A stretch of DNA of 64,000 nt from the human T2T-CHM13v2.0 reference genome, Homo sapiens. This document shows positions 2,830-31,751 of this stretch, piece by piece. The position numbers and the translations under genes were made by a program. The notes under the pieces were generated by a model. The model ran no database searches. It saw nothing but the letters and a program-made list of their open reading frames with translations, and was not told where the DNA came from. How positions within the stretch are numbered: position 1 is the stretch's first letter; each line of letters opens with the position of its first letter. Where the stretch lies: the NCBI RefSeq assembly GCF_009914755.1, contig NC_060933.1; one strand, written 5' to 3'.

Positions 2830-4260
2830 GTCACACCCCCCAAGGCCTGAGCTGAAGTGGCACATCATCCTCTGGGGAATTGGTGCCCTGGCCAATCTGA
2901 GCAACTGTGCATCCCAGAGATGAGATGATGTAGTACCATGCGTCCCAGGGAAGTAGGGCAGTGACTGAGCTGAGACACAACACTTATAGGCCAAATAACT
3001 CTACTGCCCTGCTTTCCTGGAGCTGGACTAGCTCTAGAGTCTGAGCTACAGAGACTCTGCTCCCTGGGGAGAGCCCTGCCCCTCTATCCAAGAAGTAGAG
3101 TCATTGTTCCATGCCCCACAGGGCTCAAAGGACAGCTGTGCTCTGCCATTTTGGGGTACTTGTTGCCATTGATCCTGGTTTCACAGAGTCTAGGATACTG
3201 CTGAGTCCCACTATCCCAGGGTCTAGAGTCACCACTGTATGATGCTTCATCCTTTGGGATATGATTTGCTACTGAGCCTTATGACTCATATTCCCAAATT
3301 GCAGCCATACCCTGCTCTGTAGGCCCAAGCCTCCAGAGTACCCCTTCTTCCCCTGAGCCAGGCCAGTGCTTTGCCCTGCCCTCCAGGGGTAGAATCACAC
3401 GCTCCATGGGCCTGAGCTGCCAGAAGATGCCTGAGAGTCACAGAACCTGAGTCTGTGGGCATGATACATCCAACCTGGCCACAGAGAACAAACCTGAACC
3501 CTAAGACCCAGGTGCCACAGTGGGGTCACAAGACCCTAAGCTTAGGTCTGTGTGGCCCCTCAGCCACCCTGAGCACCTGCACCTGGAACTCAGAGCCTCT
3601 ACAACTGCTTATAGGCCATGTCAGACCTGACACTAAGAGGGATCCCTTTGGCTAAGTCTCCATGTTGTGGGGAATCCCAAAATAGGAAGACCCTAAAAAC
3701 TCTTGCCACTAAAGATATCAACAGCTTTCACTGCTGCTGTCACTGCCCCAAACTTCTTCAGCCTAGGTTAGTGTTAATGAATTAATTCAGCAAAGTTTCA
3801 GGATACAAAACCAACATGCAAAAATCAGTAGCATTTCTAGACACCAACAATGTACTAATGGAAAAAGAAATCAAGAATGCAATCGCAGTTATACTAGGTA
3901 CAAAAACACCCCTAGGAATCAGTTTAACTAAGAGGTGAAAGATCTCTAAAAGGAAAACTATAAAACACTGATGAAAAAATTGAAGAAAACATAAATAAAT
4001 GAAAAGACATGCCATGTTCATGGATTGGAAGAATTAATATTGTGAAAATAATCATACTGTCAAAAATGATCCACAGATTCAATGCAATCCCTATCAAAAT
4101 ACCAGTGACATTCTTCACAAAAATAGTGAAAATATAACAGCTGTACATATTTACAGGGTACGTGTGATTTTTTATATAGGCATACAATGTTTTGATCAGG
4201 GTAATTGGGGTATCCATCACCTCAAGCATTTATTATTTCTTTGTGTTAGGAGCAATTCTG
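2830..4260. mobile_element. Composite old L1 pieces: 5'UTR-like (~2830-3770), ORF2 fragment (+, ~3785-4125), 3' end (-, ~4130-4257)
   Basis: ORF2 motifs ttcagcaaagtttcaggatacaaa, ccatgttcatggattggaagaattaatattg; reverse L1MA-type 3' terminus. Confidence 0.65.
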
Positions 4261-20485: not shown

Positions 20486-20568
20486 ACTATTCATTTTTCA
20501 AACTCAAATGACATCTACTTTAAGAGAACATACTTTGTGGGGAGAAAGATCTAGATTCAAATAGCAAC

Positions 20569-21437
20569 TTTAATACTAGAAGTTATGTCAGTTTGGGTTT
20601 GAAATGAAATTCAGGCAATTTCTGTACTTTATTTTCTGTAAAATAGAGATAATAATACTTACCTAATAGGGTATAAAACCAAATAATAAAAATTTCAGTC
20701 ATTTCAATATTTATTGTACCAGGCACTGTCCTACGTATTAGGTATATATGGTAATGAATAAAATAGACCTGGAACTCACCTCTCCTTGAAAGAAACAGAC
20801 AAATAAATAAATGAAATATATTGTATGTGAAGTGGTAATAAGTGCAATGGAAATAAACTAATTAAGTGTTTGGTGTAGGTTGAGGATGGAGAGGCATTGA
20901 AATTTCAATTGTAATTGCATCTCACCTAAGGAGGTGATGAAGTGAGCCACGGGGATGTGAGAACGTGGGAGAGGGGCCAGGGAGAGTCACTGTTCTGATT
21001 CCTGGCTGCAGCTGTGATTACTGCCATATCTCTTGTAATTATGCATGTCGGCTTCCCTGAAACACCAACTCTGGCCTTCTACAACTTCAGACCAAGGTCT
21101 CCCAGTCGAGTGCCTTCCTGTTTGCATTCTATGACTGAGCCACAAACAGCCCTGTCTTGAGCTCTTATTTTCTTATAAAGTTTCTGGATATATCTGTATT
21201 TTATTTGGTATGCTCTTAATTATAGCCCTCTCTCCCCATTCCTCTTCTCGCTGCTGGAAGGTGGTGGATGGCTAGGCTGGAAGGCTATCCTGAGCAATAC
21301 CGTCTTATGTTGGTATTTATTATTTGGTTTTATACCCTATTAGGTAAGTATTATTATCTCTATTTTACAGAAAATAAAGTACAGAAATAGCCTGAATTTC
21401 ATTTCAAACCCAAACTGACATAACCTCTGGTATTAAA
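20569..21437. repeat. Inverted repeat: arms 20569-20690 and 21316-21437 (MIR-derived sequence)
   Basis: 119/122 identity, no gaps, by manual alignment; 625-nt spacer. Confidence 0.95.
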
Positions 21438-22419
21438 TACCAATTATCAGTCATCACACCTCCTAATACCCAGTCATTTTATCCAGGCTAAGCTTCTGCA
21501 CCTCAAGTTCTTCCCTTAAGGTGAATTTTTTCTATAGCGAGACCTCTGCCCAGGGAGTTAAGTGCTAACCTGTTTCCTGATAGCTTAGGGGTATTATTAA
21601 TACGGAGGATTTGGCCACTGATCCTCATTTTGTCCTGCTATTGTTCTTATTCATTAATTCATTTATACAATGGCACTTATTTAACATATACTATGTGTCA
21701 AACTTGCATTGATACTGGATATACAATAGGGAATAAAACAAATATAGTTCTGCCCTCATGGTCTACAAGGGTTTCTTTGGATTCTTATAGAATACACTCT
21801 TCCTCTGCCTACCCTACCAGGTAACAAATAGGTATATTTCTTGGGCTGCCTCATGTCTGCACACTCCATAACTTGTTGTACATGTATTTATATCTGATGA
21901 TTGTATCTAATCAATTATCTCTATGATTTGTAAGGTCTTTCAGCAGCAACATTTGTGATTTTAGAATTTGATTGATTTGTAATAAGTGTACTCAGTGCTA
22001 TTTGACTTAAATTTGTTGCACTGCAACTTAGTGTAGCCCTGATAAAACTGGGGCTCCCATGTGGTCTGGCATATACAGTAAATGCCTTAAAAACACAAGC
22101 GTTATAATCAAGAATACTTGAAGAAAAAATTTAAGGTTTTATATAAAGGGAATGAAAGTAGGTCCACTTTATAAGTTAAAGCAAAATGTTTTAAAATTCT
22201 CTATTGCCATCCACTTCTTATTCCCATCTACATACTGAAGCAACTTGAAAGAAAGATCTCTTCTTTTTGTTCATTCTTCAAGTCAAGGTACTGCATCTGT
22301 GCCTCACTTATATTTTATTCCCTAACCCCTCCCCACCATATCACCTGTTATGAAAGGCAACCTAAGTTCTTTGGCTTATTTATTTTCTTTTACTTTACCC
22401 ATTACAAGGATTCTCTACA

Positions 22420-28250: not shown

Positions 28251-28929
28251 AACAGGCTGTGGACAGTAAGAGATACCATGCCTAGTTACATAAGTATATC
28301 ACTGCAAAATATAGAAACATCACTTATAATGAAAGTAATACTGTTTCAGAGTTCTAAAACAAGCATTTTCTTCCCCTCACAAAATATCACATTTCCATTT
28401 CCACAGTTGTGATGCTTTTCATTTACCCATGACGTTAAGCTCATCTTTAGCTCTTCTTCATTATGTGGGTCTGTGTTCTAGCTTTTACCTCAGTAGCAGT
28501 TTTTGTTTGCAGGAAAAAAGGAACTCTTTTGGTAGTCACTGTTTGTAATTGCGGCCTTGATATTCTAAGCCATTGAGTCACAATTAATAATTAGAAATTC
28601 TTACTAACTTTGCCCATATATTACCTATGAAGCAGTAGCCGTAGGAATGCAATTTTCCTGTAAATCCCTCCCTCTTATACAGCTCTAGTTCATTATTTAA
28701 AAGATTCAGGGTGAATTCAAGTAATTTCCTATGCTGCTATCATTTGCTTAAAGACCTTTTGCAATGGGTCTTATGTAAGAAGAAATGCAGGAGTTGCTTT
28801 GGTGAGGTTTATTTAAAGAAACCATTAAGTGCAAGACAGACCTGAAGAGCAGCATCAGTTGTGTATGGGGAAACAGGAGCTATGAATGCGTCACTTCATT
28901 TAGGTTGACAGAAAGAGGGCTAATACTTG

Positions 28930-29455
28930 AAAAAAATCCCTACACGATCTGGTGCCAGGCTACTTCTTTGGCCTCACCTCTTACCACTGCCCCCTCCTTC
29001 CGTGTCCTCCAGCCACAGTGACCTCTTTCCTGATCCTTGAACTTGCCAAACACTTTCCCTTCTCAAGGTCTTTGCCTTCAGGAGTCCCTCTGCCTGAAAT
29101 TCTTTTCCCAGATAGTCATGGGACTGGTTCATTCTCATCCTTCAGATCTCTGCTCAAATGTCACTTATTCTAGGAAATCGTTCCTGGCCACCGTAAAATA
29201 GCACACCCCCTCCTCACTTTCTACTCCTTTTCTTTGTTATTATGTATATGGCAGCAGAAAACTATGCATTTTCTTAGTGGCAATTACACACCCCGCACAT
29301 TATGCATTTAAAGCGTTGTTTGTTGTTTTGTCGCTTCCATCAGAATACAATCCAGTAGGGCAAGGAGTGTGTGGGGTCGTGTTCACCTGGTATCTCTGGG
29401 GACCTACAGCCCGGCACCTAGTAGACACTCAGTAAATATTTGAATGAATGAATGA
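28930..29455 (+). mobile_element. L2 3' end abutting the CpG island
   Basis: ctctgctcaaatgtcac..; ggcacctagtagacactcagtaaatatttgaatgaatgaatga L2 terminus. Confidence 0.8.
29168..29176. promoter_or_regulatory. GAS/STAT and BCL6-type motif TTCTAGGAA (revcomp TTCCTAGAA)
   Basis: Exact TTC-N3-GAA match ~1.2 kb upstream of exon 1; occupancy cannot be shown from sequence. Confidence 0.5.
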
Positions 29456-29497
29456 GGCCCTTTGGCAGCCGGGAAGCCCGTCACAGCCGTTGTCTCC

Positions 29498-29873
29498 ACC
29501 CTCTCCCGGGCTACACCAGGCCACGCCGGTAAAGTTGTTTCTCCTCTAGGAGAAACATTCGCTAGGCCTTGTTGCCAACCCGCAGGCGGCTGGGCGCTTC
29601 ATCCCACCCTCACCCCTTTCCAGCCAAGGTGGCTGATGGGAGTCAGGCTCTCGAGGGCGCATTGCCACGAAACAGCGTGTGTGAGCGCGTTGTCCCCGGC
29701 CCCCGGCGCCACTTCCCCTCGGCCTAGCAGCCTGGACTGGGGAAGGACGGGTCTGCTGTACCCGGGAGGTGGAAGGAAAAGCCGAAAGCGGAGAAGTGTG
29801 CGGGAGGGGAGTCTCCGCGCGGAGGCAGCCCGGCCTCCTCCAGTGCAGGCTGCGCGCTGGGGAGCCAGCCAGG
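29498..29873 (+). other. JAK2: Probable upstream alternative first exon of JAK2 (start approximate)
   Basis: Consensus donor AGG|GTGAGT at 29874 within the CpG island; consistent with recalled upstream-starting JAK2 variants. Confidence 0.65.
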
Positions 29874-30193
29874 GTGAGTCACTCCCGGCCGCTTCCCTGG
29901 AGGGCGGCGGCCACACACACACCCGCCCATCTAGTGAGGGCCGGGCCCAGCGCTGGCGCCTAGCTCCAGCCGGGCACCAGCGTTTCGCGAGGCGCCGCCG
30001 CCTTAACTTCCTTGCGCGCTCACGCCCAGGGGCCGTCCCAGGAATCTCCACGCGCGCTCGCCGGCTTCCCGAGAGGCAGCTGCCCTGCGTGGCCCGCGCC
30101 TGCCGGTCCCGCGACCAGCACCGAGCGGCGCACGCGCACTGCAGGACGCGCGTCCGGCTCTCCCCCAGCCTCTATCCGGCCCGGTCTCCTGCC

Positions 30194-30281
30194 ATTCGGG
30201 GAGACTGCAGGCCAACCGGGAGGCTGAGTTCGAAGCTAGCAGGGCGGCGAAGCCAGTGTCGCCCGCGGCGTTGAGAAGACG
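30194..30281 (+). other. JAK2: Possible short alternative first exon of JAK2
   Basis: Weaker donor ACG|GTGTGG at 30282; recalled transcript start ATTCGGGGAGACTG. Confidence 0.4.
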
Positions 30282-30352
30282 GTGTGGCCCCGGAGAGGGT
30301 GGAGACAACTGTGACGGGCTTCCCGGCTGCCCGAAGTGGGAGTGGTGTGGGG

Positions 30353-30738
30353 CTGCAGGAAGGAGAGAGGAAGAGGAGCAGAAGGGGGCAGCAGCGGACG
30401 CCGCTAACGGCCTCCCTCGGCGCTGACAGGCTGGGCCGGCGCCCGGCTCGCTTGGGTGTTCGCGTCGCCACTTCGGCTTCTCGGCCGGTCGGGCCCCTCG
30501 GCCCGGGCTTGCGGCGCGCGTCGGGGCTGAGGGCTGCTGCGGCGCAGGGAGAGGCCTGGTCCTCGCTGCCGAGGGATGTGAGTGGGAGCTGAGCCCACAC
30601 TGGAGGGCCCCCGAGGGCCCAGCCTGGAGGTCGTTCAGAGCCGTGCCCGTCCCGGGGCTTCGCAGACCTTGACCCGCCGGGTAGGAGCCGCCCCTGCGGG
30701 CTCGAGGGCGCGCTCTGGTCGCCCGATCTGTGTAGCCG
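30353..30738 (+). other. JAK2: JAK2 exon 1 (non-coding; start approximate)
   Basis: Recognised 5'UTR; ends at donor CCG|GTGGGT (30739). Confidence 0.9.
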
Positions 30739-31047
30739 GTGGGTGTTATCTCTGCCTGGCTTCTGGGTGGGGGGCAGCAGCTGTCTCTCCACCCCCTTCC
30801 TACCTTTTGGTCCCGCCTGCCCCCTGCTAGTGGCAGCAAACTTCTGAGCCAGAAAAATCTTCCTCTTTAAGACGACACCTAGAACGAGTCTTGCTGGTGA
30901 TATTTGCTTCCATTTGTGTCTTATAATTCCCTCGCTCCCGCCTCCTTATTCCTTTTTAAAATTTTCTAGACACTTAAACAGCCTAGAAAAAGCATTTGTT
31001 TCCCCTGGATTTATGTGGTAGTAGTTAACTGCTGCTTCTGTTTTTAG

Positions 31048-31130
31048 GTTTCAGAAGCAGGCAACAGGAACAAGATGTGAACTGTTTCTCTTCTGCAGAA
31101 AAAGAGGCTCTTCCTCCTCCTCCCGCGACG
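31048..31130 (+). other. JAK2: JAK2 exon 2 (non-coding, 83 nt)
   Basis: Acceptor ttaactgctgcttctgtttttAG|G with branch-like TTAAC; donor ACG|GTGGGT at 31131. Confidence 0.92.
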
Positions 31131-31751
31131 GTGGGTGTGCTGTCCTTTATCGCTGCAGTAAAGGCGAAGGTGTCTGGAGCTGGGAGTGCGTGCGTAGGGA
31201 AGGTTGGAAGCGTGTGAAGAGAGGCAGGGCTCATTGTTGCTTACTCTTCTGAAAATGTCAGTGCTAAACTTTTAATGTTGATCTGGGAGAGTAATTTTGG
31301 GGTGTTTTGTTGTTCGTCTTGGATCCTTTAAGAAACATTTTTTTGTTGGCTTTACACATAACGTGACTTTGCAGAGAAACGAAAAACGTTGTCCATTACC
31401 CTTTCTTCTTAAGCAGCCAGAGATTCTTAATCCTTTAAAGAGGAGTATTTCCAAGCAATAAGAGATAGCTTTTGGGAGAACACGTTAGCTATTCTTGCTG
31501 GGGTTTCTGCTACCACATTGAATGTTTCCTCATGGTTTTATCTGCCTAAGCTTGCTGTGTCGGTTGAATTTACCCAGTTTGTTTTCCAGTAATTACTAAT
31601 CTGTTAGGAGAAACTCCATTTCTCTGAATGAAAGGGTAGGAGCGGCTGAGTATGGAGAAGGAAACTGGAAGTGGGAATAAGGGAAATGATTGCTTTTGGT
31701 TTCATAATAAGTTTGTACAGTGAGTTGTTGGGCTACTGCAAATAAAGATTT

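What the first reader, a model, noticed from the sequence alone, without database searches (positions are those of the whole stretch)
29464..30331. ~52-bp inverted duplication brackets the upstream part of the JAK2 promoter
Seen: 29464-29517 (GGCAGCCGGGAAGCCCGTCACAG-ccg-TTGTCTCCACCCTCTCCcGGGCtACACC) is the reverse complement of 30281-30331, with 49/51 matches plus a 3-nt indel. I do not recognise the arms as a transposon. The right arm lies ~20-70 nt upstream of exon 1 and contains a CRE half-site (TGACG). The left arm begins within ~10 nt of the L2 3' tail, at the edge of the CpG island and near the upstream alternative start. The ORF track shows the same thing (AAGKPVT.VVSTLS.ATP on both strands). 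Inference: a proximal-promoter segment was copied in inverted orientation. It could seed an upstream or antisense TSS, allow inversion of the 763-nt spacer that holds the alternative first exons, or base-pair in nascent RNA started upstream and mask the 30282 donor.
Basis: partly seen in the sequence, partly recalled or inferred. Interest (0 to 1): 0.8.

Follow-up and report, generated by a model that had tools for sequence, protein, structure and literature searches.

The report
Short inverted duplication in JAK2 promoter
A real, locus-unique pair of about 52-base inverted copies brackets the upstream part of the JAK2 promoter, but such small inverted duplications are common in human DNA, so it is a modest curiosity whose role in an upstream start site is still untested.

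Summary
29464-29517 is the reverse complement of 30281-30331, with 49 of 51 matches, one 3-nt indel and a 763-nt spacer. No such match appears in 100 shuffles. The whole T2T genome holds only these two copies of the arm and no second copy of the 868-bp unit. It is therefore a local inverted duplication, not a dispersed repeat or transposon.

The left arm starts 8 nt after the shared end of a dispersed repeat, at the 5' edge of the CpG island, and contains the annotated upstream start 29498. The right arm lies 49-99 nt upstream of the main exon 1, not 20-70. The arms carry the region's only two TGACG half-sites.

The class is ordinary. A second unique pair lies 9 kb upstream, and a random 200 kb of the genome held one more. 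Published counts run to millions (PMC5398296).

Best reading: a roughly 50-nt promoter module was copied in inverted orientation and now sits at the upstream alternative start. Spacer inversion and RNA masking of the 30282 donor are unlikely. Age, direction and function could not be tested here.

The parts
29464..29517 (.). Left arm of the inverted duplication (54 nt, with 3 extra nt CCG at 29487-29489)
   Evidence: only 2 copies genome-wide
30281..30331 (.). Right arm (51 nt), at -99 to -49 from the main JAK2 exon 1 start 30380
   Evidence: exon start from the hub annotation
29518..30280 (.). 763-nt spacer forming the upstream part of the CpG island; it holds most of alternative exon 29498-29873 and the start 30194
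   Evidence: hub annotation
29409..29456 (.).
   Evidence: 4 other genomic places at 87-94% identity, all ending at query 126/127, which is window 29455/29456
29498..29873 (+). Annotated upstream alternative first exon; its start lies 34 nt inside the left arm and its donor reads CAG|GTGAGT at 29874
   Evidence: hub annotation; sequence
30194..30281 (+). Annotated alternative first exon (no AG before 30194, so it is a start); its GT donor at 30282-30283 is right-arm sequence
   Evidence: hub annotation; sequence
30380..30738 (+). Main JAK2 exon 1 (NM_004972.4)
   Evidence: hub annotation; GT at 30739-30740
30312..30316 (+). TGACG (CRE half-site, consensus recalled). With its mirror CGTCA at 29479-29483 these are the only two in 29300-30900
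29496..29501 (+). CCACCC box overlapping the annotated start 29498; its mirror GGGTGG lies at 30297-30302
   Evidence: motif name recalled

Best explanation
One local rearrangement copied about 51 nt of JAK2 promoter sequence in reverse-complement orientation to a site about 0.8 kb away. The most likely route is a copy-and-paste event that did not turn the spacer, such as a replication template switch or repair synthesis. The more likely direction is from the proximal promoter (right arm, -99 to -49 of the main start) to the less constrained 5' edge of the CpG island (left arm). The copied piece is a small transcription-factor module holding a TGACG half-site, a CCACCC box and a GGAA-type core. 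Such sites act in either orientation, so the left copy now serves as proximal-promoter sequence for the upstream alternative start annotated at 29498. The inverted symmetry itself (DNA or RNA pairing, or recombination) has no role. Shown: the duplication, its uniqueness, its position relative to annotated starts and exons, and its motif content. Inferred: the mechanism and direction of copying, the age (roughly primate-era) and any effect on start-site use.
For: The duplication is real and beyond chance. The genome holds only two copies of the arm, and the 868-bp unit has no other copy. The annotated start 29498 lies inside the 54-nt left arm, with a chance of about 0.058 under uniform placement in the upstream island. 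The arms carry the only two TGACG half-sites in 29300-30900, plus mirrored CCACCC boxes. Both arms lie inside RefSeq 'enhancer' features (29431-30264 and 30193-30332, hub table). CpG observed/expected rises steadily from about 0.67 at the left arm to about 1.0 next to the right arm, as expected if the spacer keeps its native orientation towards the main start. Divergence of 2 in 51 gives K=0.040, about 20 My at a recalled rate of 1e-9 per site per year (95% range 2.4-74 My). PMC5398296 (section 15 read) dates 79% of human intergenic inverted duplicates as primate-specific. Opposite-orientation non-tandem duplications and template-switch-made inverted repeats are documented in human DNA (passages of PMC5829575 and PMC5453318).
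Against: I saw no start-site data (CAGE, PRO-cap), no factor-binding data and no other species' sequence, so function, age and direction are untested. An annotated 5' end can simply be the longest cDNA. The 6% coincidence was noticed after the fact. The motifs are short, recalled consensus strings with little information content. Published template-switch events are mostly tens of bases in range (PMC5453318 passages), so 0.8 kb is long for that mechanism. The class is very common and mostly without known function: one more such pair lies in this window, one was found in a random 200 kb, and PMC5398296 section 12 counts 4,315,271 in human.
Confidence: 0.45

Rival explanations
1. Same origin, no function. 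The pair is a neutral relic of a small inverted duplication, and the start at 29498 and the donor at 30282 coincide with the arms by chance.
For: Unique pairs of this kind are frequent. A second lies at 20569-20690 / 21316-21437 (122 nt, 98%, spacer 625), with only 2 copies genome-wide. One was found in a random 200 kb (L007, 179 nt, 91%, spacer 617), again with 2 copies only. PMC5398296 counts millions and finds most of them young. The two positional coincidences are each only about 6% events and were noticed post hoc.
Against: The left arm holds an annotated start. The arms hold the region's only TGACG half-sites and lie within RefSeq enhancer features (hub table).
Confidence: 0.35
2. The arms are the footprint of a micro-inversion. 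An inversion of about 0.8 kb made by staggered breaks duplicated the segment between the nicks and turned the spacer. This flipped the main promoter's upstream-antisense unit (arm plus present exon 29498-29873 and its donor) into the sense direction and so created the upstream first exons.
For: Staggered-break inversions leave inverted duplications of non-repetitive sequence, 46 bp to 1.9 kb long, at their ends (PMC1885836 abstract and passages). Some template switches also invert the spacer (PMC5453318). Both arms end inward with an initiator-like YYANWYY heptamer pointing into the spacer (29511 on +, 30281 on -). The exon end 30281/30282 lies 1 nt from the junction between spacer and right arm.
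Against: The CpG and GC gradient rises towards the main start, as in an unturned island. YYANWYY is degenerate, with 11 hits in the region. The Drosophila cases are chromosome-scale. No outgroup was available.
Confidence: 0.1
3. The arms work through RNA pairing. In unspliced RNA they form a long-range stem that hides the 30282 donor and shifts the choice of 5' exon.
For: The full arms give -110.8 kcal/mol. The 20 nt transcribed from 29498 give -39.9 kcal/mol against 30281-30300, with a mean pair probability of 0.94. The arms close the minimum-energy fold, with z -8.3 for the fold starting at 29464 and -3.3 for the fold starting at 29498.
Against: No start is annotated upstream of 29464. RNAs that use the 30282 donor start at 30194 and lack the left arm. 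RNAs from 29498 use the strong 29874 donor. The equilibrium folds ignore co-transcriptional splicing and cap-bound proteins. The high z-score follows automatically from the repeat.
Confidence: 0.05
4. The arms are terminal inverted repeats of a DNA transposon, or two copies of a dispersed repeat.
For: The geometry fits: two inverted ends around about 0.8 kb.
Against: The genome has no other copy of the arms or of the unit. The flanks GGCCCTTT and CGAAGTGG show no target-site duplication. The interior is the JAK2 CpG island with its exons. The search can miss very old copies below about 80% identity, and Dfam was not available.
Confidence: 0.02
5. The arms form an invertible promoter switch, recombining so that the spacer exists in both orientations in people or in cells.
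For: Only the presence of inverted homology.
Against: The arms are 51-54 nt at 96% identity and the longest perfect tract is 23 nt. By my recollection, inversion-mediating repeats in humans are hundreds of bases to kilobases long. No variation data were seen.
Confidence: 0.02

Closest known systems
Inverted duplicates of vertebrate genomes (Chen et al. 2017, PMC5398296; found with Inverted Repeats Finder)
   Same: Two reverse-complementary arms separated by a spacer of at most 1,000 nt. The arm length falls in that paper's longest class (36 nt or more), which also has the longest spacers. Most such pairs are young.
   Different: This pair is genic and promoter-located, whereas the paper analysed intergenic ones. 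Its arms are unique sequence inside a CpG island, and one arm carries an annotated start site.
Inverted duplications at inversion breakpoints from staggered breaks (Ranz et al. 2007, PMC1885836)
   Same: Non-repetitive sequence is duplicated in inverted orientation at both ends of a segment. The reported duplication sizes (46 bp to 1.9 kb) include 51 nt.
   Different: Those inversions are chromosome-scale and in Drosophila. Here the segment is 0.8 kb, its orientation against an ancestor is unknown, and the CpG gradient argues against a turn.
Short-range template-switch mutations (Loytynoja and Goldman 2017, PMC5453318) and microinversions flanked by inverted repeats (PMC8755829)
   Same: A nearby segment is copied as its reverse complement, creating an inverted repeat with or without an inverted spacer.
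   Different: Published events span tens of bases (microinversions of 17-33 nt). Here the copy lies about 0.8 kb from its source.
Terminal inverted repeats of DNA transposons or MITEs
   Same: Inverted ends bracket a segment of under 1 kb.
   Different: Single copy in the genome, no target-site duplication, and host promoter sequence inside.
Cruciform-prone palindromes (non-B DNA)
   Same: Inverted symmetry in a promoter.
   Different: A 763-nt spacer is far beyond what supports cruciform extrusion (recalled: databases use spacers up to about 100 nt).

Membership tests
Inverted duplicate (sense of PMC5398296) | Two reverse-complementary arms of 10-10,000 nt | tested here: met
   54 and 51 nt, 49 of 51 matches plus a 3-nt indel
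Inverted duplicate (sense of PMC5398296) | Spacer of 0-1,000 nt | tested here: met
   763 nt; definition read
DNA transposon / MITE with terminal inverted repeats | Several related copies in the genome | tested here: not met
   Only the two arms match. The 868-bp unit has no other copy. The search may miss very diverged copies.
DNA transposon / MITE with terminal inverted repeats | Target-site duplication directly outside the arms | tested here: not met
   Flanks GGCCCTTT (29456-29463) and CGAAGTGG (30332-30339) differ
Inversion footprint from staggered breaks | Inverted duplication of non-repetitive sequence at both ends of one segment | tested here: met
Inversion footprint from staggered breaks | Segment inverted relative to the ancestral state | not testable with these tools
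   No other vertebrate genome is held. The indirect CpG gradient argues against it.
Short-range template-switch mutation | Inserted segment is the reverse complement of nearby sequence | tested here: met
Short-range template-switch mutation | Source and copy within one replication fork (published cases span tens of bases) | tested here: inconclusive
   The distance is about 0.8 kb. No limit was stated in the passages I read.
Cruciform-forming inverted repeat | Short or absent spacer | tested here: not met
   763 nt; threshold recalled
Inverted repeats that mediate inversion by homologous exchange | Long, highly identical arms (hundreds of bases or more; recalled) | tested here: not met
   51-54 nt, longest perfect tract 23 nt
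Known RNA family (Rfam) | Score at or above the family's gathering threshold | tested here: not met
   The only hit is whalefall-1 at 23 bits against a threshold of 37, at 29498-29558 on the minus strand

The most novel reading that the evidence does not exclude
The two arms are the scar of a promoter micro-inversion of about 0.8 kb made by staggered breaks. The event turned JAK2's upstream-antisense (divergent) transcription unit into the sense direction. This created the upstream alternative first exon (29498-29873, with its strong donor) and, at the new junction with the right arm, the exon 30194-30281 with its donor at 30282. On this reading a medically important gene gained new 5' exons by flipping its own divergent promoter.
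Probability: 0.1. Interest if true: 0.6.

Novelty: new member of a known kind. Interest (0 to 1): 0.3.

Why it matters
JAK2 is a central cytokine-signalling kinase, and its promoter region carries disease-associated variants. A review (PMC8835887, passages) places rs1887428 'in the promoter region'. If the left copy really drives the upstream start, it would be a clean example of a new alternative promoter made by copying a 50-nt factor-binding module. It could be dated and tested with existing primate genomes, CAGE data and a single deletion. There is also a practical point: very short reads or tags that fall wholly inside the perfect tracts (23 and 18 nt) cannot be assigned to one arm. If the left copy has no such role, the pair is one more of the many small inverted duplications in human DNA.

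Tried and rejected
- **Earlier findings:** A second call, sent in the same batch, failed on a missing field.
- **Longer homology around the arms:** self-BLAST of 28500-31500 found nothing colinear. The match 29846-29913 with 30557-30626 (69%, E 0.008) is off the symmetry axis and I take it as chance.
- **Rfam:** only a sub-threshold hit.
- **Literature on this repeat:**
  - 'JAK2 promoter' + 'inverted repeat' gave 0 papers.
  - 'JAK2' + 'inverted repeat' + 'CpG island' + 'promoter' gave 3 papers, none relevant by title or abstract.
  - 'JAK2 promoter' + 'transcription start site' + 'CpG island' gave 3 papers. I read passages of one, PMC10140599, which mentions IRF1 at the JAK2 promoter without positions.
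  - 'JAK2' + 'alternative first exon' gave 32 papers, 15 listed. I checked one, PMC7244579, and it was irrelevant.
- **PMC3961182:** 'staggered' there refers to restriction enzymes, so it was no help.
- **Baseline sample:** I planned 100 random 10-kb stretches. The baseline therefore rests on 200 kb plus the window, and the frequency (about 1 per 100-200 kb) is rough.
- **Motifs:** no full CRE, E-box, GAS, TATA, YY1 or canonical ETS (CCGGAAG) motif in 29300-30900.
- **By eye only:** no convincing CTCF-type match in the arms.
- **Not available here:** other vertebrate genomes, Dfam/RepeatMasker, CAGE or PRO-cap, ChIP data, and human variation or pangenome data.

Full report
**Observation.**
The repeat finder reports two adjoining inverted pairs:
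- 29489-29517 with 30281-30309 (29 nt, 93%)
- 29464-29486 with 30309-30331 (23 nt, 100%)

A gapped alignment joins them into 49 matches of 51 aligned positions plus one 3-nt gap, CCG at 29487-29489, present only on the left. The spacer is 763 nt. Each half matches exactly two places in the 64-kb window at up to 3 mismatches, and none of 100 dinucleotide shuffles gave a match. A sensitive self-BLAST of 28500-31500 finds no other colinear inverted homology; the next best hit has E 0.008 and lies off the axis. The duplication is therefore limited to about 51-54 nt.

**It is not a dispersed repeat.**
- Searched against the whole assembly (3.1 Gb, 24 contigs), a 66-nt query over the left arm hits only the two arms.
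- The whole 868-bp unit has no other copy.
- The flanks GGCCCTTT and CGAAGTGG show no target-site duplication.
- The 48 nt just upstream (29409-29456) do match 4 other chromosomes at 87-94%, and all 4 matches end at the same point, window 29455/29456. That is the behaviour of a retroposon 3' end.

No tool here could name the family. The genome search is BLAST-like and can miss very old copies. Even so, two arms that are 96% alike with no third relative must derive from each other.

**Position relative to the gene (hub annotation read).**
- GC and CpG observed/expected rise at about 29400-29600 and fall after about 30800, so the left arm sits at the island's 5' edge.
- The annotated upstream start 29498 lies 34 nt inside the left arm.
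- A second alternative first exon starts at 30194, with no AG before it, and ends at 30281. Its GT donor (30282-30283) is therefore the second and third base of the right arm.
- Both arms lie within RefSeq 'enhancer' features (29431-30264 and 30193-30332).

**Content of the arms.**
In 29300-30900 the only two TGACG half-sites are the arms' own (30312 on plus, 29479 on minus). Each arm also has a CCACCC box (29496 plus, 30297 minus) and a GGGAAG element (29471 plus, 30319 minus). Each ends inward with an initiator-like YYANWYY heptamer pointing into the spacer. The motif names are recalled consensus strings of low information; YYANWYY alone occurs 11 times in the region. No TATA box, full CRE, E-box, GAS or canonical ETS site is present.

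**How unusual is such a pair?**
- Of the 24 inverted pairs within 3 kb found in the window, 18 lie in stretches the hub lists as masked repeats. The ones printed read as Alu (recalled).
- Two more are A/T runs, one is a short palindrome, and two are the present arms.
- The last one is another pair: 20569-20690 with 21316-21437 (122 nt, 98%, spacer 625). It extends to about 130 nt with gaps and is likewise present only twice in the genome.
- In 20 random 10-kb stretches, a scan for arms of at least 40 nt, at least 90% identity and a spacer of at most 1.5 kb found one pair: L007 1748-1923 with 2541-2719 (179 nt, 91%, spacer 617). It is also unique genome-wide.
- A looser scan added one pair at 82% identity (L010, spacer 1332). 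I did not check its genome-wide copy number.

This agrees with the literature. PMC5398296 (sections 12 and 15, and passages of the methods) counts 4,315,271 human inverted duplicates with spacers of at most 1,000 nt. Its longest fifth has arms of at least 36 nt, and it dates 79% of intergenic ones as primate-specific. The structure as such is ordinary, and only its place is notable.

**Origin.**
Two documented routes give this picture.
- *Copying without turning the spacer.* PMC5829575 describes opposite-orientation non-tandem duplications in long reads (passages). PMC5453318 describes template-switch events that create an inverted repeat (passages).
- *Inversion with staggered breaks.* This leaves inverted duplications of 46 bp to 1.9 kb at both ends (PMC1885836, abstract and passages).

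Only an outgroup can decide between them. One internal clue favours copying. CpG observed/expected climbs steadily from about 0.67 near the left arm to about 1.0 beside the right arm and the main start. This is the gradient of an island in its native orientation.

Divergence of 2 in 51 gives K=0.040. That is about 20 My at a recalled rate of 1e-9 per site per year per lineage (95% range 2.4-74 My). The age would be greater under constraint or gene conversion.

**Mechanism.**
My best reading (0.45) is that the copy placed a second, inverted factor-binding module at the island's edge, where it now acts as proximal-promoter sequence for the start at 29498. The symmetry itself does nothing. The support is positional:
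- The start lies inside the arm, with a chance of about 0.058.
- The arms hold the only TGACG sites.
- Both arms lie in RefSeq enhancer features (hub table).

None of this is a functional test, and the coincidence was noticed after the fact. The main rival (0.35) is a relic without effect.

RNA pairing is thermodynamically strong. The full arms give -110.8 kcal/mol. The 20 nt transcribed from 29498 give -39.9 kcal/mol with a pair probability of 0.94. The fold z-scores are -8.3 and -3.3. It is biologically weak, for three reasons:
- No start is annotated upstream of 29464.
- The RNAs that use the 30282 donor start at 30194 and lack the left arm.
- RNAs from 29498 use the strong donor at 29874.

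Cruciform formation is implausible with a 763-nt spacer, and homologous inversion is implausible with 51-nt arms whose longest perfect tract is 23 nt. The thresholds for both are recalled.

**Novelty.**
No paper in the searchable library links JAK2's promoter with an inverted repeat. The pair is a new, undescribed member of a well-known and very numerous kind.

The boldest reading still open (about 0.1) is that a micro-inversion flipped the divergent antisense unit into the sense direction and so created the upstream first exons. The mirrored initiator-like elements and the exon end 1 nt from the junction of spacer and right arm fit it. The CpG gradient does not.

**Limits.**
No other vertebrate genome, Dfam, CAGE or PRO-cap, ChIP or human variation data could be reached. 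Supplements of the cited papers were not opened.

Noticed in passing
window 20561-20690 and 21316-21445: A second locus-unique inverted duplication lies 9 kb upstream of the JAK2 promoter. Its arms are 122 nt (about 130 with gaps) at 98% identity, the spacer is 625 nt, the sequence is AT-rich, and the genome holds only these two copies. Its total span (869 bp) is almost the same as that of the promoter pair (868 bp), probably by chance.
   Followed up: partly
L007 1748-1923 and 2541-2719: A randomly drawn 10-kb stretch holds a similar unique inverted pair (179 nt, 91%, spacer 617), with only two copies genome-wide. The three unique pairs seen have spacers of 617, 625 and 763 nt. Clustering this tight has a post-hoc chance of about 0.027 under uniform spacers of 0-1500 and remains unexplained.
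   Followed up: partly
L010 2660-2860 and 4193-4397: An inverted pair of 205 nt at 82% identity with a 1332-nt spacer, present only twice in the 264 kb examined. Its genome-wide copy number was not checked, so it may be a repeat family.
   Followed up: no
window 29536-29557: A 22-nt near-palindrome (20 of 22 positions; 10-nt stems around a 2-nt centre) lies 18 nt downstream of the left arm, inside the upstream alternative exon. It underlies the sub-threshold Rfam hit at 29498-29558.
   Followed up: no
window 29409-29456: The end of a dispersed repeat, with a GAATGAATGAATGA tail, matches 4 other chromosomes at 87-94%, all ending at the same base. The family was not identified.
   Followed up: partly
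window 3522-3559: Overlapping inverted arms (25 nt, 80%) form a short palindrome.
   Followed up: no
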